From a virus (Duplodnaviria; Heunggongvirae; Uroviricota; Caudoviricetes), in the IMG/VR virus record IMGVR_UViG_2778261122_000005, positions 1-12,956 of that record: 12,956 nucleotides of DNA. One strand, written 5' to 3'. Below the pieces are notes generated by a model. That model was not told the DNA's origin and ran no database searches. It was given only the letters and a program-made list of their open reading frames with translations. The position numbers and the translations under genes were made by a program. Below are positions 1 through 7,421 of this stretch, piece by piece (position 1 is the stretch's first letter; every line of letters begins with the position of its first letter).

Positions 1-161
1 AGTTTGCTCCTGCCATAACGTGAAGAAGCAATGACCTGGTGGTCCGTGACTTCCCTACGCTGGCATTATCCAGATCAGGTGATACGGGTATTTCTTACTA
101 TTTTTTGTTATCAGTTGATAATTAATAAGTTTTTCAGCACAGAAGAATTAAAAACCTCAAA

Positions 162-231
162 ACTGACCACACAACTGACCACACATTTCGTTGAAGCTCT
201 ACGAACAACGACGAACAATAACAAACAAAAG
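162..231. repeat. Tandem 12-bp repeat ACTGACCACACA x2 (162..185) followed by 10-bp-phased ACGAACAA repeats (201..231)
   Basis: Direct reading of the sequence. A similar phased CGAACAA motif recurs at ~7321..7350 upstream of the plus-strand gene. Confidence 0.5.
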
Positions 232-358: not shown

Positions 359-524
359 CGTTATGGGAATCCCCATATCGGCATCACGCCCACCAGCGCG
401 ACGCATTTTTTTTAATTTCGCGGGTGTAAAAATTTGACGAGGCGTGCGGTCCCATAAGCAATAGGTTGTAGGGATTTCGATCCCCCCTCCTGAATGCAAT
501 TTTTCGTATATATATACAAAACAG

Positions 525-759: not shown

Positions 760-2421
760 TTACACACCATCAAACGCCGCAAGCCGCTCTTTGTGGCTGT
801 CGCTCATATCGAATGCAAATTCCTCATGCTCTGCCTGGAATGTGCCAAACGCCATCAGCGCCGCAACGCTCGGGTCTATCTTGTTGGATGATTTTTTCTT
901 GTTCGGCTTGATATTGGCGTTAGCGTCACTCTGCATCACAACATTACTCATTGACCAGGCCAGCACCGGATCACCACGATGCACAATCACCTTCCGGTTA
1001 ACAAAAACTTCGAACGATTTCGCCGCCGGACTGAAACGAAGGTATGTTTGCGGGAACGGCTCCACCTCAAATCCTGCCCCCTGTAGCTGCGTCCTCAGGT
1101 GCGTGGCGTTCCATGTATCGAAGCCCACCAGCCTGATATTGAAATTCTCTGCATCCGCCATGATGTCATCACGGATACGGTCATAATCAATGCAGTCACC
1201 CGGTGTTGTGCGTATCCAGCCCGCCTTTACCCACTGGCGATAGATGGCGCGGTTTTTATTGGCGGGGTTCTGTAGCTGAAATTCCGGCAGATAGTGACGG
1301 GAAACCAGCATAATCTTTTTACCGACCGGAAAGGCATAGCACACGCTGGAAATATCGCTGGTTGATGATAAGTCCAGCCCCGCGTAGCACTCCTGCCCGT
1401 ATAAATCCGCCTCCGCGAACGTTCCGGCGCACTCCGCCCATGCACCGTTACCCATCCACGGCGTAGCCCCCTGACACCAGATATTGAATCGCTTGGTGAG
1501 CATTTCCACCCACTGCGACGGAATACCCCGCGCTTTCTGGATGGTTGAGGCCAGTTTTTCACGATCGACGGAAACATCGATATTTGGATTCGCCTTTATC
1601 CACATCGCCGGATCGTCAACCTCGCTTTCATCATCCAGCTCGTAAATCAGAACGAACATGGATTCGTTCATCTCTTCACCATCCAGTATCTGACAGCAAT
1701 AGTCATAGTGTTGTTTACAGGCTGAAACAACGTTGCTCCCCGATGTGGTAATGGCAAATAACAGCCCTTCGGGACGTGCGCCCATCCCCATATCAAGTGC
1801 GGAATAAACCCCGTTGTCTGGGTGCAGGTGATATTCATCCACAATGGCAAGACTCGGGTTTGTCCCCTCAATGGTTGCCGCTTTTGCTGCCAGTGGCTTT
1901 AACAGGCTGTTGGTTTTCGGGTGTATCACCTTATGCGCCTGAATATTCACCCGCCTGCGTAACGGTCGGGATAAAAGGCACATCTGACGCGCATCATCAA
2001 AGACGATCCGCGCCTGGTCACGGCTCACCGCTGCGGTGTAGATATCCTGCTGACCGTTCTCCATAATCAGAAACCAGTTAGCCAGAATCGCGGCGGTCGT
2101 GGATTTCGCATTTTTGCGCGGCACTTCGATAAAGGCGCTCGTGTATTTGCGCCGTCCGGTGGCCTTAACCTTAAAGCCGAGGATGCACGCAAAGGCGAAC
2201 TGCTGCCACGGCTCCAGCTCAATGGGTCTGCCACGCATCGGTCCTTTTACGTGCGGACACACCCTGGAAAAGGCAATAAACCGCTCCACGACCTCCGGAT
2301 CGAACGTGTAAAGGGGGTTTTCAAGGTCAGAAAAATACCGTTTAACGGCCTGTTTCAGTCGTTTACAGGCCGTAATTTTGCCGTTTTTTACGCCTTCTGC
2401 GTACTCATGCCAGGTGGTCAA
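760..2421 (-). CDS. terL: Terminase large subunit
   Basis: 553-aa ORF whose sequence reads as a phage large terminase (ATPase plus nuclease). It lies immediately downstream of and overlapping the small terminase. Apparent TTG start at 2421, preceded by a GAGGAAGAGGA Shine-Dalgarno-like stretch inside the terS 3' end. Confidence 0.88.
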   Translation of the reverse strand: MTTWHEYAEGVKNGKITACKRLKQAVKRYFSDLENPLYTFDPEVVERFIAFSRVCPHVKGPMRGRPIELEPWQQFAFACILGFKVKATGRRKYTSAFIEVPRKNAKSTTAAILANWFLIMENGQQDIYTAAVSRDQARIVFDDARQMCLLSRPLRRRVNIQAHKVIHPKTNSLLKPLAAKAATIEGTNPSLAIVDEYHLHPDNGVYSALDMGMGARPEGLLFAITTSGSNVVSACKQHYDYCCQILDGEEMNESMFVLIYELDDESEVDDPAMWIKANPNIDVSVDREKLASTIQKARGIPSQWVEMLTKRFNIWCQGATPWMGNGAWAECAGTFAEADLYGQECYAGLDLSSTSDISSVCYAFPVGKKIMLVSRHYLPEFQLQNPANKNRAIYRQWVKAGWIRTTPGDCIDYDRIRDDIMADAENFNIRLVGFDTWNATHLRTQLQGAGFEVEPFPQTYLRFSPAAKSFEVFVNRKVIVHRGDPVLAWSMSNVVMQSDANANIKPNKKKSSNKIDPSVAALMAFGTFQAEHEEFAFDMSDSHKERLAAFDGV

Positions 2422-2761
2422 GCTCGTCCTCTTCCTCTGTTTCCGGTGGATTTCTGCGGCGGCTTACCGGGTCAAAACCCAGCAAAGAAGCCATTTTGAT
2501 CATTATTCTTTCTGCGTCAGCCTTTGCGCTCAGGGCGGGGTTTCTGCTCTCGCTGCCCTGACTGTTAACAATGCTGAAGCCGCGTGTCGCAAGGTCTTCG
2601 ACGGCTTTGCGGTATAGGGAGTAGTTAACGCAATACAGTTCCAGATTGCTCCAGTCGGCGGGGGTAAGGTCTTCCCGCCCGGAAAGCTGGCGCGATTTTT
2701 CCTTCCACTGCCTGACCGCGATTTCATCCAGGTAAGCGGGGGCTTTTGGTGGTCTTGCCAT
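2405..2761 (-). CDS. terS: Terminase small subunit (P27-type)
   Basis: Start set at the internal ATG (2761) giving MARPPKAPAYLDE..., the characteristic N-terminus of P27-family small terminases. The longer track ORF (to 2902) has an implausible N-terminal extension. Acidic C-terminal tail, stop overlapping terL start. Confidence 0.75.
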   Translation of the reverse strand: MARPPKAPAYLDEIAVRQWKEKSRQLSGREDLTPADWSNLELYCVNYSLYRKAVEDLATRGFSIVNSQGSESRNPALSAKADAERIMIKMASLLGFDPVSRRRNPPETEEEDELDHLA

Positions 2762-3049
2762 GTTCTTTTTTCGCCCAATTATTTTCAAAAAAATTCCCGT
2801 GCACAAAAATTTGAGGAGGCGGTCGGTGTCCGGCATGGACGGTTTCGTCCTGAAAACCTCCCCCACCCCCTCTGACGGCCTCACCAGCGATTGCGAAAAC
2901 ATTCCATGACCTCGCGGTCACGGTCGGTTAATCGCTTCGCTGTGGTGCGTTCTGTGCGCCCTGTCCTGTTGGCTTTGTGCTCTGTCTCCTGTGTCTTCCA
3001 TGTGTCACGCTGCCTTATCAGTCCACGTATCAGCCTGTTTTGCTCCTGT
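2762..3049. other. Putative cos (cohesive end) packaging site region
   Basis: A 288-bp non-coding gap sits exactly between the HNH endonuclease and terS, where HNH-associated cos phages place cos (established knowledge). It contains GACCTCGCGG (~2908..2917), identical to a 10-mer in lambda cosN as I recall it, plus GC-rich tracts (CCCCCACCCCC ~2858..2870). Confidence 0.4.
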
Positions 3050-3490
3050 TCAGTCATCATCGCCATACATCCAGTCGTTACGGTGTGCTGCCCGTTCTTC
3101 CTGATCGCGATACATGCCCGCCTTACGGTTCGCTTTCGTGGCTGGATCTTCCCGTGTCGTCTTACGGTTGTGGCACGTCTGACACAATGCCTGGTGATTC
3201 CACTCAGGCCAGAAGAGAACATCACCGCCGCCATTGATGGGGATAATGTGATCCACCACAAAGGCTGGCGTATAAATACCCTCAGCCAGACAACGCACAC
3301 ATAACGGATTTTTTTTCAGGTACATGGCGCGGTATTTGTCCCACTGTCGGGAATACCCGCGCGCGCGGCGGTGTCCCCGTCTGGCATCCTCTGCACGCCA
3401 TGCAGCCCGCCTGTGCTCTTCACACTTGCCGGACTTCACGCGCTTATTACAGCCCGGCTCAGTGCATCGCCTTAATGGTTGCCATGGCAT
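3050..3490 (-). CDS. HNH endonuclease (terminase-associated)
   Basis: 146-aa protein with Cys pairs and HNH signature (..VVDHIIPINGGG..NHQALCQTCHNRKT). Start overlaps the stop of the upstream connector gene. Typical position upstream of cos/terS. Confidence 0.85.
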   Translation of the reverse strand: MPWQPLRRCTEPGCNKRVKSGKCEEHRRAAWRAEDARRGHRRARGYSRQWDKYRAMYLKKNPLCVRCLAEGIYTPAFVVDHIIPINGGGDVLFWPEWNHQALCQTCHNRKTTREDPATKANRKAGMYRDQEERAAHRNDWMYGDDD

Positions 3491-3786
3491 CAGTACACCC
3501 CCACATCACGATAAACCGACCAGAGCGCGGAAATCGTCAGGGGAATTTCTTTTGTATCGGTATCGCCAAGCGTTGTCCGGTACTCGTACAGTTGCGAGAT
3601 GTACATCAGGCAACCAATTTTTATTGCAGGGGTAAATTCCAGGCCGTCATCAAAACGCCTGCCAATATGCTTCTGGCATACCTCCAGCGCCGCACTTATG
3701 TATGCCTGAATCAGTGTGTCTTCTGTGTTACCATCTATGCGGCAGTGAAGTTTGGCCTCTTCCAGGGTTATTTTTTCTGCTGTCAT
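3490..3786 (-). CDS. Head-tail connector protein (gp6-like, DNA-packaging family)
   Basis: 98-aa protein; N-terminus MTAEKITLEEAKLHCRIDGNTEDTLIQAYISAA matches the conserved pattern of gp6-like connector proteins. ATGA overlap with the upstream gene. Confidence 0.7.
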   Translation of the reverse strand: MTAEKITLEEAKLHCRIDGNTEDTLIQAYISAALEVCQKHIGRRFDDGLEFTPAIKIGCLMYISQLYEYRTTLGDTDTKEIPLTISALWSVYRDVGVY

Positions 3787-4121
3787 TTTTCTGTACCCAC
3801 CTTTGCCAGAATTTCCAGCCGGGTTCTTTTCGCATCAGGTAAGGGGATCCCGATGATATTAAGCGTGCTCCCGGCAAAAGCGCCGGTAAGCATTTTCAGG
3901 CGACTGGCGGCGGATATGTCGCCACGATAGCGAACCCATACCCGAATCGTTGCAGGTGCGGTTTCTGCGCCTGCGGTCAGTAATTCCCGTCCGCTGATCC
4001 CCTTGACCTCTGCCCAGATGGTTTCCCCTTCCGTCCATATCTGCTGGATCGCACCTGACGGCAGGCGCTGTGTGGTAAATGTCATAATCGTCACCCGGTC
4101 CCGCATCTTTCCGGCTATCAT
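3783..4121 (-). CDS. Head closure / head-tail adaptor protein (SPP1 gp16-like)
   Basis: 112-aa protein with the IRxWVRYRGDI..-type motif typical of head-tail joining proteins. ATGA overlap with the portal stop. An alternative ATG at 4106 is possible. Confidence 0.65.
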   Translation of the reverse strand: MIAGKMRDRVTIMTFTTQRLPSGAIQQIWTEGETIWAEVKGISGRELLTAGAETAPATIRVWVRYRGDISAASRLKMLTGAFAGSTLNIIGIPLPDAKRTRLEILAKVGTEK

Positions 4122-5341
4122 TCGTCACCGCCCTTACTGTTCTTGCTGATTGTCACTTCCTGCTTCCATGCCTGGCTGAACTCGTCGCCACCTTCACGCG
4201 GCGGCATTCCCTCACGCTCACGGGCTTCGTTCGGATTCATGATCCCGTTCTTAATCCCTTTCTCATACGTGGCGTAACGTTCGGTAGGGGTGGCGCGTAA
4301 TAAATCGGCTGAATCAAACTCAACCAGATAACGGGTACCAGGTACGGGAGAAGCCACCAGCAAAGCGGCCTTGATTTGCTGTTCGAAGTTCGCCAGCCAC
4401 GGGCGCATTGTCATGGTCAGAAACGCACGGCTTGCCTCGCTGAAATTGCTGTAGGTGCTGTTGCTGTATTCCTGCAGAAAAATAGGCGATACGTTGAACA
4501 TGCGGGCGATGTCTTCAATGGAGAAGCGACGGGAGGCCAGCCATTCCGCATCCTGGTTACTCATTCCCAGTTGCTTGTAATCCATGCCCCCTTCAAGAAT
4601 TGGCGTTTTTCCGGCATTTTTCGCCCCCTTGTAGCGTTCCAGAGCATCTAATGCCTGTTTACCTTTCACGCCGTCCAGCCATTCACCTGACGTGATAATC
4701 CCTGCCGCCATCATGCCATCTTTCATAATGCTGGCTCCGTGGCGCTGTTGAGCAAGACCAAGCCCCAGCGCCTCACGGCAAATCGTGACAGGGGAGCGCC
4801 CCAGAAAGCCATCATCCGAGGCATAGCGGAGATGCAGAACTTCTTCCTGTAAATACGTGCGCACCGTTCCTGTATAGGGTTCGGTGATGGTATAGCGGTA
4901 TTTGTGTGCGCCTGTGCGTTCCGGTACAACACACCCCGGCGCATAAGGATGAAGTGATTTTGGCTGTCCGTCCCGCCCCCACTCAATAACCGCATAGGCG
5001 TTACCGTTCAGCAGGCAGTGACGCATCATTGTGCGTTTAAACTGGTAAGGTGTCTGGCATGAATTAGGCTGCTCATTCAGCAGAATATCTACCGGGTGAC
5101 TGTCCAGCCATTCCCGCGCCTCTCTGCCCTTATCATTGCGTACAAGATACAGGTAACACGGCATCGTGGCCACCGCCTCAGAGATAACAGAAACCGCGTT
5201 CATCACAGCAGGCAATGATTCAGCCGTCCCGGCAGAAACATATTCTCCAGATCCGGTATTTGGTACGCCGGACAGCGCCAGAAAATCATCAATGGACAGG
5301 TTACGCTGCTCGCTTTTTTTACGACTAAAAGGCCACCACAT
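4118..5341 (-). CDS. Portal protein, HK97 family
   Basis: Sequence reads as an HK97-family portal. Start chosen at ATG 5341 (MWWPFSRKK...), one nucleotide after the protease stop. The track ORF start at 5431 is a TTG and would overlap the protease by ~90 nt. Confidence 0.85.
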   Translation of the reverse strand: MWWPFSRKKSEQRNLSIDDFLALSGVPNTGSGEYVSAGTAESLPAVMNAVSVISEAVATMPCYLYLVRNDKGREAREWLDSHPVDILLNEQPNSCQTPYQFKRTMMRHCLLNGNAYAVIEWGRDGQPKSLHPYAPGCVVPERTGAHKYRYTITEPYTGTVRTYLQEEVLHLRYASDDGFLGRSPVTICREALGLGLAQQRHGASIMKDGMMAAGIITSGEWLDGVKGKQALDALERYKGAKNAGKTPILEGGMDYKQLGMSNQDAEWLASRRFSIEDIARMFNVSPIFLQEYSNSTYSNFSEASRAFLTMTMRPWLANFEQQIKAALLVASPVPGTRYLVEFDSADLLRATPTERYATYEKGIKNGIMNPNEAREREGMPPREGGDEFSQAWKQEVTISKNSKGGDE

Positions 5342-5342
5342 A

Positions 5343-5903
5343 TCACAACCCCGCCAGCTCAGCCCAGCGATGACGATTATTTCCTGTCGGACGTAATTCG
5401 GGGTGCTGTGCAAACAACGAACGGTGGGCAATCTCCACGCCAGATTCTGGATAAGCAGGCATCGACGTTATTGTGATTTCTCGGAGTTCAGCGGCGGTTA
5501 CGGTACGCAGATACGGTTTTTGCGCGATACTCCACTCCTCGCATAATGCGCGAAAACCAAAGCTCATTCCTGTAATGTCGCCACGCTCCACCAGCGTAAG
5601 CACATCTTTTCCAAGCTGGGTATCCGGCGGTGTCAGCTCAAAACGTAACCCGGTGTTATCCTCAGTCAGTACCAGAGTGCCGGATTTGGTGCGCCCCAGC
5701 AGTTGGGTATAGTCATGCTCATACAGGCAGCGCACATCATTACCCGCCGCCAGATAGTCAGCAAAAGCCCCCGGCGTGAACTGTTCGCGGAATTCGTCCC
5801 AGATAATTTCTGAAAGGCTGTTCCAGCGAACGGCATAACCCACCAGCTTTTTATTGCTGGCGGTCAGTTCAGATGTGCGGATTTCAAAATCGGTGTTTTT
5901 CAT
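5343..5903 (-). CDS. Prohead protease, HK97 family
   Basis: 186-aa protein with conserved prohead protease motifs (GYAVRWN..., FTPGAF, ...HD..., TGMSFGF). ATG at 5903. Confidence 0.8.
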   Translation of the reverse strand: MKNTDFEIRTSELTASNKKLVGYAVRWNSLSEIIWDEFREQFTPGAFADYLAAGNDVRCLYEHDYTQLLGRTKSGTLVLTEDNTGLRFELTPPDTQLGKDVLTLVERGDITGMSFGFRALCEEWSIAQKPYLRTVTAAELREITITSMPAYPESGVEIAHRSLFAQHPELRPTGNNRHRWAELAGL

Positions 5904-5920
5904 CGGTGTACTCCATAAAG

Positions 5921-5950
5921 CTGAAAAAGGAGGCCGCAGCCTCCTCCTTA
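5921..5950 (-). terminator. Intergenic hairpin between capsid and protease genes (possible partial terminator / attenuator)
   Basis: 7-bp GC-rich stem AGGAGGC / GCCTCCT with a 4-nt loop at ~5928..5945, followed on the minus strand by a short U-tract (TTTTT). Sits directly after the capsid stop codon. Confidence 0.35.
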
Positions 5951-5957
5951 CTCATGA

Positions 5958-7127
5958 CTAGCCAGCTTTCATTTCCAGAATTTTGATGGCGTTTGAATCC
6001 ACCACACCACCGCCCAGATATTTATCCGTGTGGACCTTGTAGAATCCGGGTTCAGTAATGTTGTCCGGTCGGGTGCGAATCCCTGTTACATGATCAACGA
6101 TGAAATAACCACGACTGAAATCGCCAACCGCCAGCGGTGCTTTTCCTGCGCCGATGTCCGGCATGGACTCCAGGCAGTAAACAGGACGACCAAGCAACAT
6201 ATCCGGCGCACCTTCTTTAAGGCTGTCGCGCCAGATATAATCGCCGTTCTCATTTTTCAGCTTCTGTAGTGTCCCTGCCGTGCCCGAGTTCATCACCCAG
6301 ACGGCATTTTTGCGGTATTTCGCTTTCAGCTTGTAGAGAATGTCGATCAGTTCGTCCGCTGTAATGGCGGTTCCACTTGCCGCTACCATTTTTTCAATGG
6401 TGCCAAAAGCGCGGGTTTTGTCACTGGTCGCCGCACGGGTGTAAGCCATGAATCCTTTCGGCTTGCCGTTACCGTCGCCATTAACAAAATCATCCTCTTC
6501 GGTGCTGGCGAACGTGTCGGCAATTTCGGAGGATAACCAGCCCAGAATATCCACCTCTGAAAAATCCAGGATTTCCTGCGTGGTTTTCGGGTAGGCGTAG
6601 ATCGGATTCAGCTTGATGGTTACGCGTTCAATTTTCGGGGTGTTGGTTTCGCTGCGCGCGCTGCCTTCTGTGCCTCTTCCTACAGTTGCGCCGCCAGTGG
6701 AAACCAGTTTCTGAAACTCATTTGATTTTGCGGTCTTCACGGTCGCGATCACGCGCATAACACTGTCATCCTGTAGCTGGCGCATGACTTCGCGATCAAG
6801 CTCAGGAATTACGGTATATCCGCCATCCCTGCCGCTGTCAGTGCTGGTGGACAGTGATCGCACATCTCCGGTTACGATATAGTTACGCAATTCATCAGAT
6901 GATAATTTCTGGATACTCGTTCCTGGCTTGCTGCGTTCTTCATCAGCCACAGACTCGAGGCGGGAAATTTCTGTGTCGAGGGAATCGGCTTTTGCACGCA
7001 GTTCATCAAACTGTTTGCCTTCGTCATCGTTCAGGCTGCGGTTTTCACTGTCTGCTTTTTCCAGCAGGGATCGCATCTGGTTTTTCAGGGCGGTTTTTTG
7101 CTGGCGGAGTTCGATTAATTTCTTCAT
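5958..7127 (-). CDS. Major capsid protein, HK97 fold, with N-terminal coiled-coil (scaffold/delta-like) region
   Basis: 389-aa protein; the N-terminal ~100 aa are charged and coiled-coil-like (LRQQKTALKNQMRSLLEKAD...ELRAKADSLDTEISRLESV), followed by a region reading as an HK97-type capsid fold. First gene of the head operon. Confidence 0.85.
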   Translation of the reverse strand: MKKLIELRQQKTALKNQMRSLLEKADSENRSLNDDEGKQFDELRAKADSLDTEISRLESVADEERSKPGTSIQKLSSDELRNYIVTGDVRSLSTSTDSGRDGGYTVIPELDREVMRQLQDDSVMRVIATVKTAKSNEFQKLVSTGGATVGRGTEGSARSETNTPKIERVTIKLNPIYAYPKTTQEILDFSEVDILGWLSSEIADTFASTEEDDFVNGDGNGKPKGFMAYTRAATSDKTRAFGTIEKMVAASGTAITADELIDILYKLKAKYRKNAVWVMNSGTAGTLQKLKNENGDYIWRDSLKEGAPDMLLGRPVYCLESMPDIGAGKAPLAVGDFSRGYFIVDHVTGIRTRPDNITEPGFYKVHTDKYLGGGVVDSNAIKILEMKAG

Positions 7128-7421
7128 GAAGGTTTTCTCGTATTGGTTAAAATTCAGGACGTGAAACCAACACGGAGGGAGCGCCGCCCGACACTCTCGG
7201 CATCTCGCAGATCAACCCGGCATCGCGCAGGGGGTCAGGCGGCATTGTGGCGGCTCACGTCTGAGTGCCACACGCCAACATATACATAAAAATCAGTATG
7301 TAAACACCAGCAGGAAACACCGAACAACTACGAAAAAACACGAACAAAGAATTTACAAAACCTGAAAAAATAAATAAGCTGTTCCGTACATTTTCTGCTC
7401 GTTAATCAGGAGGAACGAACT
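7128..7421. promoter_or_regulatory. Divergent intergenic control region for the head operon (minus) and the plus-strand cargo gene
   Basis: A 294-bp non-coding region containing direct repeats CGGCATC(T)CGCAG (~7197..7232), an interrupted dyad TGTGGCGGCTCA-N3-TGAGTGCCACA (~7246..7272), phased CGAACAA repeats (~7321..7350), -35/-10-like hexamers TTTACA / TAAATA with non-ideal spacing, and a strong AGGAGG Shine-Dalgarno 8 nt before the ATG at 7422. Confidence 0.4.

What the first reader, a model, noticed from the sequence alone, without database searches (positions are those of the whole stretch)
3490..7127. Non-canonical head gene order: capsid first, then protease, portal, adaptors
In HK97-like phages the order is terS, terL, portal, protease, capsid, connector, adaptor. 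Here the block reads capsid, protease, portal, adaptor, connector, then HNH, cos, terS, terL, all on one strand. A capsid-first operon with a hairpin straight after the capsid gene would give high capsid-to-protease and capsid-to-portal expression ratios through polarity. It may be a hallmark rearrangement of this satellite lineage.
Basis: partly seen in the sequence, partly recalled or inferred. Interest (0 to 1): 0.45.

Follow-up and report, generated by a model that had tools for sequence, protein, structure and literature searches.

The report
Capsid-first head operon of a cf-PICI satellite
The unusual capsid-protease-portal gene order is real, but it is the already published signature of capsid-forming phage satellites (cf-PICIs), which build their own small heads and steal only tails from helper phages.

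Summary
On the minus strand, profile searches give capsid (7127..5958), S78 protease, portal, head-closure Hc1 ("adaptor"), gp6-like Ad1 ("connector"), HNH, a cos-like site, terS and terL. The same order holds in every one of about 149 related loci with enough DNA, from Enterobacterales, Pasteurellaceae and Orbales. The nearest true phages have 34-37% capsid identity. The six examined, plus helper phage HK022, keep the canonical terS-terL-portal-protease-capsid-Ad1-Hc1 order.

This is not new. Alqurainy et al. state this exact organisation for proteobacterial cf-PICIs, and He et al. use it as a search criterion. The window capsid is 64% identical to the solved EcCIEDL933 T=4 capsid (PDB 9GYI).

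The hairpin after the capsid gene is real and conserved in 79 of 81 distinct sequences. It has UNCG or GNRA loops and a T-run, so attenuation is plausible. All seven canonical-order phages checked have one too, so it came with the capsid gene rather than with the rearrangement. No expression data exist.

I also found a conserved, covarying structured leader upstream of the capsid gene. It is absent from Rfam.

The parts
7344..7360 (-). Conserved upstream box TTTTGTAAATTCTTTGT, a possible activator site
   Evidence: TTGTAAAT is invariant in 19 aligned upstream regions from E. coli to Serratia and Yersinia. Coordinates. Its function is inferred only.
7275..7305 (-). Sigma-70-like promoter of the packaging operon (TTTACA, 16 nt spacer, TATGTT)
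   Evidence: Promoter scan hit at 7304..7277. The -10 region ATGTATAT(C/G)TTG is conserved in relatives. A bidirectional terminator at 7899..7924 closes the upstream module.
7128..7274 (-). Structured 5' leader of the capsid gene: hairpin 1 at 7271..7247, hairpin 2 at 7243..7183, a C/U tract, and hairpin 3 at 7168..7131, which covers the ribosome-binding region
   Evidence: 51 distinct leaders were aligned, giving 29 consensus pairs, 12 of them with compensatory changes. 97.8% of cells are paired; covariation is 0.276 against 0.114 in shuffles (0 of 500 reach it), and slid controls give 0.076 or less. The covariance model R1 scores 106.8 bits here. Rfam has no match. The 23-mer GGCACTCAGACGTGAGCCGCCAC lies 118-144 nt upstream of the capsid start in 112 of 112 further loci with room.
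5958..7127 (-). Major capsid protein, HK97 fold, with an N-terminal delta-like domain
   Evidence: PF05065 2e-71 and phrog_10. 64% identical to PDB 9GYI, the EcCIEDL933 T=4 capsid, at E 5e-156.
5924..5949 (-). Terminator-like hairpin AAGGAGGAGGC-UGCG-GCCUCCUUUUU in the 54-nt capsid-protease spacer
   Evidence: Conserved in 79 of 81 distinct relatives, with UNCG or GNRA loops and a T-run.
5343..5903 (-). Prohead serine protease (S78)
   Evidence: PF04586 7e-46 and phrog_80.
4118..5341 (-). Portal protein. The ATG at 5341 lies 1 nt after the protease stop.
   Evidence: PF04860 1e-92. RefSeq start in L001 and L002. Junction TGAtATG.
3783..4121 (-). Head closure protein Hc1, called 'adaptor' in the cf-PICI papers
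   Evidence: PF05521 1e-18 and phrog_25. ATGA overlap with the portal gene.
3490..3786 (-). gp6-like head-tail adaptor Ad1, called 'connector' in the cf-PICI papers
   Evidence: PF05135 8e-12 and phrog_40. ATGA overlap with Hc1.
3050..3490 (-). HNH endonuclease, a packaging accessory
   Evidence: PF01844 and phrog_144 1e-44.
2881..3066 (-). Small conserved ORF (61 aa) overlapping the HNH 3' end
   Evidence: phrog_3173 3e-28. Annotated in L001, L002 and L003.
2847..2870 (-). Probable cos region (GGGGGTGGGGGAGGTTTTCAGGAC)
   Evidence: The ends of the linear record LR881103 (vB_KppS-Ant) map here. This is inferred, because the physical ends of that record were not verified.
2405..2761 (-). Small terminase, P27 family
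   Evidence: PF05119 8e-23. RefSeq start.
760..2421 (-). Large terminase
   Evidence: PF03354 plus PF20441, and phrog_9 2e-179.

Best explanation
The block is the head-morphogenesis and DNA-packaging operon of a capsid-forming phage-inducible chromosomal island (cf-PICI) of the proteobacterial clade. In the near-identical locus L002 the island sits between thiM and rcnR in E. coli.

By homology with the characterised EcCIEDL933, the island makes its own small T=4 HK97-fold capsids. It packages only its own roughly 15-kb cos genome using its own HNH, TerS and TerL, and it takes tails from a helper phage through its Hc1/Ad1 pair.

The order capsid-protease-portal-Hc1-Ad1-HNH-cos-terS-terL is the fixed organisation of this clade. 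It is not a local accident.

Within the operon the capsid cistron is set apart from the rest. It follows its own promoter and a conserved structured leader. It is followed by a conserved terminator-like hairpin. Everything from the protease gene to HNH then overlaps or abuts, which fits translational coupling.

The most likely role of the hairpin is partial termination and/or 3' stabilisation of the capsid message. That would make capsid mRNA exceed the mRNA of proteins needed in far fewer copies. Identity and order are shown here. The T=4 capsid and tail theft are inferred from the EcCIEDL933 literature. The attenuation step is inference only.
For: Protein identities come from Pfam and PHROG searches.

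The capsid is 64% identical to PDB 9GYI, the EcCIEDL933 capsid with T=4 symmetry and 240 copies.

The same order was found in 72 of 72 genome loci and 77 of 77 viral contigs with enough DNA. It is also seen in the satellite-sized records LR881103 and OR544139.

The published statement of this order is in 10.1101/2022.09.08.507074. Its use as a search criterion is in 10.1101/2025.02.11.637232.

In the phage collection only four records reach 60-77% capsid identity: two satellite-sized records of 15-16.5 kb, one 3.8-kb fragment and one 106-kb record that was not examined. There is then a gap down to 37%.

L002 shows an island of about 15 kb with an integrase, regulators, a DUF927 replicase, and no tail or lysis genes.

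The hairpin is conserved in 79 of 81 distinct sequences, with UNCG or GNRA tetraloops and T-runs. In L065 the stem sequence is wholly replaced but the structure is kept.

The capsid-protease spacer is the only spacer longer than about 15 nt between capsid and HNH.

All packaging genes are needed for EcCIEDL933 transfer, so the hairpin cannot be a complete stop.
Against: There are no transcript or protein-ratio data.

The T-run in Enterobacterales is short (3-5 T), and the stem core is only 5-6 bp.

Canonical-order phages carry the same post-capsid hairpin. They reach correct stoichiometry with portal and protease upstream of capsid, so capsid-first order is not required for the ratio.

Firmicutes cf-PICIs work with other orders.

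In about 22 Pasteurellaceae relatives a gpU-like gene sits upstream of the capsid gene.

The window itself lacks the integrase end.
Confidence: 0.85

Rival explanations
1. The reversed order is a frozen historical rearrangement with no role in expression. The hairpin is ancestral baggage of the capsid gene, and stoichiometry is set by translation initiation and protein turnover.
For: Seven of seven canonical-order HK97-like phages have the same post-capsid hairpin. Firmicutes cf-PICIs have other orders and are still a working family. Some Pasteurellaceae members put a gpU-like gene before the capsid gene.
Against: The order is invariant across about 40% protein divergence and about 149 loci. 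The hairpin is retained with stable tetraloops even where the stem sequence is replaced. The downstream genes are tightly coupled. Conservation could still reflect the difficulty of reshuffling overlapping genes.
Confidence: 0.35
2. The hairpin works mainly as a 3' stabiliser of a processed capsid mRNA, together with the 5' leader hairpin, rather than as a transcription terminator. The capsid excess would then come from differential decay and not from polarity.
For: The capsid cistron is bracketed by a probable 5'-terminal hairpin (7271..7247, starting a few nt after the -10 element) and the 3' hairpin. Several phage homologues of the hairpin lack a T-run, for example ST64B, D14E and VW-6S.
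Against: In cf-PICIs the T-run is nearly always present and is long (6-8 T) in Pasteurellaceae, which is typical of intrinsic terminators. No processing site is known.
Confidence: 0.25
3. The region is a decayed prophage or a phage-PICI hybrid remnant, not a functional satellite.
For: It carries phage-type head and packaging genes. In one genome the same island lies inside a prophage.
Against: All eight ORFs are intact. The same eight-gene set recurs in over 150 loci, mostly on contigs of 9-18 kb. The island is 96-97% identical at two or more different insertion sites. No tail or lysis genes are present. A homologous island has been shown experimentally to transfer.
Confidence: 0.03
4. The ORFs are mis-assigned and the order is really canonical.
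For: None found.
Against: Pfam and PHROG matches cover almost the full profile lengths, with E-values from 1e-12 to 1e-179. The RefSeq annotation agrees.
Confidence: 0.01

Closest known systems
EcCIEDL933, the prototype proteobacterial cf-PICI (Alqurainy et al., 10.1101/2022.09.08.507074; He et al., 10.1101/2025.02.11.637232; capsid PDB 9GYI)
   Same: The same eight-gene packaging module in the same order, the same HK97-fold capsid family with full-length alignment, and HNH-dependent cos packaging genes.
   Different: The capsid is only 64% identical, so this is a different sub-lineage.
KpCIDSM30104 and vB_KppS-Ant type cf-PICIs. L079 is K. pneumoniae ATCC 13883, which I take from my own knowledge to be DSM 30104. 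L003 is LR881103.
   Same: The same order. Identities are capsid 76%, protease 85%, portal 88%, terL 82%, and the same leader 23-mer is present.
   Different: Hc1 is only 40% identical and Ad1 78%. This head-tail joining cassette is the exchangeable part that He et al. tie to tail specificity.
HK97-like head modules of temperate phages (HK022, ST64B, SfI, phiP27)
   Same: Homologous terS (P27 family), terL, portal, S78 protease, HK97-fold capsid, Ad1 and Hc1, and a GC-rich hairpin directly after the capsid gene.
   Different: Their order is portal-protease-capsid-Ad1-Hc1 downstream of terL. They are followed by tail genes, share at most 37% capsid identity, and lack the cf-PICI leader.
Firmicutes cf-PICIs (two groups)
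   Same: The same minimal gene content and lifestyle, according to the paper.
   Different: Their orders differ: either portal-protease-capsid comes first, or HNH-terS-terL comes first. The paper infers independent origins.
Terminators placed after major capsid genes, such as T7 T-phi after gene 10 (recalled from my own knowledge, not tested here)
   Same: A stem-loop with a U-run immediately after the most abundantly needed structural gene, with read-through needed for downstream genes.
   Different: Here the genes downstream of the hairpin include the protease and portal, which in other phages lie upstream of the capsid gene.

Membership tests
cf-PICI (capsid-forming PICI), proteobacterial clade | [quoted passage not shown] | tested here: met
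   for identities. The criterion is quoted from He et al. and Alqurainy et al..
cf-PICI (capsid-forming PICI), proteobacterial clade | Element size of about 10-18 kb | tested here: met
   The window is cut before the integrase. In the 97% identical L002 the element runs from just beyond thiM to the integrase, about 15 kb. Related viral contigs are mostly 9-18 kb.
cf-PICI (capsid-forming PICI), proteobacterial clade | Integrase plus regulation and replication modules | tested here: met
   In the window: a DUF927 primase/replicase, SSB, a PerC-like activator and DUF4222. The integrase and HTH regulators lie just outside the window in L001 and L002.
cf-PICI (capsid-forming PICI), proteobacterial clade | No lysis genes and no complete tail module | tested here: met
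   None are annotated in L001 or L002. None turned up among the window ORFs that were scanned. Not every small ORF was scanned.
cf-PICI (capsid-forming PICI), proteobacterial clade | Capsid and TerL fall in the cf-PICI clade, well separated from phage homologues | tested here: met
   For the capsid, 60-77% identity occurs only in four records of the phage collection (two satellite-sized, one fragment, one large record not examined), followed by a gap to 37%. The best PDB match is the EcCIEDL933 capsid. No tree was built.
cf-PICI (capsid-forming PICI), proteobacterial clade | Helper-induced excision, self-made T=4 capsids, exclusive self-packaging, and use of helper tails | not testable with these tools
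   These are experimental properties, shown only for EcCIEDL933, EcCIGN02175 and KpCIDSM30104.
cf-PICI (capsid-forming PICI), proteobacterial clade | Attachment sites never occupied by prophages (Alqurainy search criterion) | not tested
   The thiM-rcnR site was seen. In NZ_OZ501679 the same island lies inside a prophage terL gene. Site occupancy was not surveyed.
HK97-like phage head module (canonical) | Order terS-terL-portal-protease-capsid-Ad1-Hc1, followed by tail genes | tested here: not met
   The order is reversed for portal/protease/capsid and for Ad1/Hc1, and no tail genes are present. Compare.
Intrinsic (Rho-independent) terminator | A GC-rich stem-loop immediately followed by a U-run | tested here: met
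   GGAGGC-UGCG-GCCUCC followed by UUUUU, -16.7 kcal/mol. Conserved in 79 of 81 sequences.
Intrinsic (Rho-independent) terminator | Measured termination or a 3' end at the site | not testable with these tools
   No transcript data were found.

The most novel reading that the evidence does not exclude
In Enterobacterales cf-PICIs the capsid cistron is a purpose-built expression cassette. It has a satellite-specific, covariation-supported structured 5' leader that is not in Rfam and is not found in helper phages. Hairpin 1 of the leader is invariant in sequence, and hairpin 3 covers a ribosome-binding region that lacks a Shine-Dalgarno sequence. The cassette ends with the ancestral terminator hairpin. 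Together these elements would time capsid synthesis, for example by sensing a helper- or island-encoded factor, and would set the large excess of capsid over protease, portal and terminase. In that reading the leader is a new class of cis-regulatory RNA that controls satellite morphogenesis.
Probability: 0.3. Interest if true: 0.55.

Novelty: already known. Interest (0 to 1): 0.2.

Why it matters
The gene order itself adds nothing new. It is the published diagnostic organisation of proteobacterial cf-PICIs, so the window can simply be annotated as a cf-PICI of a lineage distinct from EcCIEDL933.

The regulatory punctuation around the capsid gene is what is not in the papers I could read. That includes a family-specific structured leader and a conserved terminator-like hairpin. 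If these control when and how much capsid is made, they would explain how a 15-kb satellite achieves virion stoichiometry. They might also explain how the satellite couples head production to its helper. Both elements are easy targets for mutational tests.

Tried and rejected
- Mis-annotation was rejected by the Pfam and PHROG searches.
- The idea that the hairpin is a novelty created by the rearrangement was rejected. ST64B, SfI, phiP27, YeP1, D14E, VW-6S and HK022 all have a GC hairpin right after their capsid genes.
- The idea that the leader mimics a helper-phage element was not supported. blastn against 50,697 phage records hits only three satellite-type records carrying the cf-PICI capsid, plus one short chance-level match at E 0.8. 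The covariance model R1 finds nothing in HK022 or six other phages.
- R1 also finds no leader in the Pasteurellaceae or Orbales loci, so the leader is confined to Enterobacterales.
- Rfam at E <= 1 finds nothing in the operon.
- Three literature searches for post-capsid terminators or capsid-gene polarity gave nothing usable.
- A search for work on cf-PICI transcription found none.
- PADLOC and Pfam gave no hit for the plus-strand cargo ORF 7422..7895.
- I could not locate the EDL933 island by coordinates, so I used the PDB entry of its capsid instead.
Full report
**What is there.** All long ORFs between 760 and 7127 lie on the minus strand. Pfam and PHROG searches identify them as follows:
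- major capsid 7127..5958 (PF05065, 2e-71)
- S78 prohead protease 5903..5343
- portal 5341..4118 (PF04860, 1e-92)
- head-closure Hc1 4121..3783 (PF05521)
- gp6-like adaptor Ad1 3786..3490 (PF05135)
- HNH 3490..3050
- a 61-aa conserved ORF 3066..2881 (phrog_3173)
- terS 2761..2405 (P27 family)
- terL 2421..760

The finding's coordinates match capsid start to Ad1 stop exactly. The ends of the linear record LR881103 map to GGGGGTGGGGGAGGTTTTCAGGAC at 2870..2847, between the small ORF and terS.

**Is the order unusual?** Yes, relative to phages. The capsid finds only four records at 60-77% identity in 50,697 phage records: two satellite-sized records of 15-16.5 kb (LR881103 and OR544139), a 3.8-kb fragment, and a 106-kb record I did not examine. 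There is then a gap down to 37%. The nearest true phages are ST64B, SfI, phiP27, YeP1, D14E and VW-6S. These, the cf-PICI helper phage HK022, and the prophage flanking the island in L001 all have terS-terL-portal-protease-capsid, with Ad1 before Hc1 where both are annotated. In the window both sub-blocks are in mirror order while the strand is kept: capsid-protease-portal, and Hc1-Ad1.

**Is it a lineage hallmark?** Yes.
- A scan of one genome per species returned 80 loci from Enterobacterales, Pasteurellaceae and Orbales. A scan of viral contigs returned 80 more.
- tblastn with the eight window proteins gave capsid > protease > portal > (Hc1) > Ad1 > HNH > terS > terL on one strand in 72 of 72 and 77 of 77 loci with enough DNA.
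- The records LR881103 and Pasteurella Pmp8 show the same order.

**What it is.** It is a capsid-forming PICI.
[quoted passage not shown] (hnh-terS-terL)". They also note that the organisation differs from that of the helper phage.
[quoted passage not shown] They also solved the EcCIEDL933 capsid: T=4, 240 copies, PDB 9GYI.
- The window capsid aligns end to end with 9GYI at 64% identity, E 5e-156.
- The island is 96-97% identical to islands in 26 complete E. coli genomes.
- In L002 the island is about 15 kb and lies between thiM and rcnR. It carries an integrase, regulators, an Icd-like gene, a DUF927 replicase, SSB and a PerC-like protein, and no tail or lysis genes.
- The order is therefore already known. 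The window is a new sequence of a known kind, in a sub-lineage distinct from EcCIEDL933 and from KpCIDSM30104 (L079; capsid 76%, Hc1 40%, Ad1 78%).

**The hairpin and the polarity idea.** The 54-nt capsid-protease spacer holds AAGGAGGAGGC-UGCG-GCCUCCUUUUU at 5949..5924. It folds at -16.7 kcal/mol, and 0 of 200 shuffles fold as well.

Across relatives, 79 of 81 distinct sequences have a GC hairpin with a T-rich tail just after the capsid stop.
- In Enterobacterales the hairpin is GGGGC-UNCG-GCCCC, with all four UNCG loops seen.
- In Pasteurellaceae the loops are often GAAA and the T-runs are 6-8 long.
- L065 has an unrelated stem sequence but the same architecture.

This spacer is the only real one in the capsid-to-HNH block. 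The other junctions are TGAtATG, ATGA, ATGA and TGATG, which indicates translational coupling. All packaging genes are required for EcCIEDL933 transfer, and there is no room for a promoter after the hairpin. The hairpin must therefore be leaky. These points make attenuation or differential stability a reasonable model.

Two results limit that model.
- All seven canonical-order phages tested have a comparable hairpin right after their capsid genes. HK022, for example, has GGCGGG-GAAA-CCCGCC followed by AUUUU. The hairpin is therefore an old companion of the capsid gene that moved with it.
- In about 22 Pasteurellaceae loci a lambda gpU-like tail-terminator gene (PF06141, phrog_37) sits directly upstream of the capsid gene on the same strand. 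In two more it lies downstream of terL. Capsid-before-protease-before-portal is universal, but capsid-first is not.

I found no transcript data. I put the attenuation or stability role at about 0.5.

**Leader upstream of the capsid gene (outside the given coordinates).** The 295 nt between the capsid ATG and the divergent ORF 7422..7895 are strongly conserved in Enterobacterales cf-PICIs. In order, they contain:
- a TTGTAAAT box
- a promoter-like TTTACA, 16-nt spacer, TATGTT
- hairpin 1, GTGGCACTCAGACGTGAGCCGCCAC
- a long hairpin 2 whose sequence varies but whose basal stem is kept
- a C/U tract
- hairpin 3, GGTTTC...GAAACC, which covers the ribosome-binding region; that region has no clear Shine-Dalgarno sequence

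The evidence for structure is as follows.
- On 51 distinct leaders, 29 consensus pairs form in 97.8% of cells.
- Twelve of the pairs show compensatory changes.
- The covariation score is 0.276 against 0.114 in shuffles (0 of 500 reach it), and 0.076 or less when partners are slid.
- Hairpin 3 never varies, so it could equally be a DNA palindrome.

The distribution of the leader is narrow.
- The 21-nt core of the motif is exact in 100 of the first 170 loci.
- In 112 of 112 further viral contigs with room, the 23-mer lies 118-144 nt upstream of a cf-PICI capsid start on the same strand.
- It is absent from Rfam.
- It is absent from true phages by blastn.
- By covariance model it is absent from HK022 and six other phages, and from the Pasteurellaceae and Orbales loci.

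The function of the leader is unknown. Candidates are a 5' stabiliser, translational control, or a site for an island- or helper-encoded factor.

**Verdict.** The order is a true hallmark but already published. The polarity idea is plausible and gains comparative support, but it is untested and is not specific to the rearrangement. Novelty: already known. Interest is low for the finding as stated. The leader RNA is the one item that might repay follow-up.

Noticed in passing
window 7128..7360 (- strand): A conserved promoter region and structured 5' leader lie upstream of the capsid gene. The leader has three hairpins, shows strong covariation in hairpin 2, and contains an invariant 23-mer, GGCACTCAGACGTGAGCCGCCAC. 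It is specific to Enterobacterales cf-PICIs, is not in Rfam, and is not found in the phages searched.
   Followed up: yes
L086 6107..6496, and the other 'short gap' loci listed: Many E. coli islands have capsid, protease, portal, HNH, terS and terL 97-100% identical to the window, yet they lack the Hc1 gene entirely. The portal-to-Ad1 gap is 14 nt, and their Ad1 is only 56% identical. The head-tail joining cassette is therefore swapped as a unit, and a one-gene version exists.
   Followed up: partly
L004 14914..15321 (-), and about 24 Pasteurellaceae loci: Pasteurellaceae cf-PICIs encode a lambda gpU-like tail terminator (PF06141, phrog_37). It usually sits 9-50 nt upstream of the capsid gene on the same strand, and in L029 and L036 it lies after terL. 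These satellites therefore carry one tail-side joining protein.
   Followed up: partly
L001 (NZ_OZ501679.1) 3115..3858 and 19363..20391: In this genome the same island, with a different integrase module, is inserted inside the terL gene of a prophage. It has the same orientation as the prophage genes and splits terL into N- and C-terminal pseudogenes. The prophage itself has the canonical head gene order. Several 28-58 kb viral contigs look similar.
   Followed up: no
window 7422..7895 (+), terminator 7899..7924: A plus-strand 157-aa ORF with no Pfam, PHROG or PADLOC match sits in the slot between the replication and packaging modules and ends at a bidirectional terminator. L001 has an unrelated 168-aa ORF at the same place, and L002 has none. 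This looks like a variable cargo slot.
   Followed up: partly
window 35..169 (-): A TPP riboswitch match (RF00059) scores 36.8 bits, below the gathering score of 54.3. It lies upstream of thiM (L002) in the chromosomal flank. The island's left boundary is near window position 389-392, where matches to islands at other insertion sites begin.
   Followed up: no
window 8225..8518 (-): A PerC-family transcriptional activator (PF06069, 3e-35) is encoded just upstream of the packaging operon, next to SSB and the DUF927 replicase. It is a candidate activator of the capsid promoter, or of host virulence genes.
   Followed up: no
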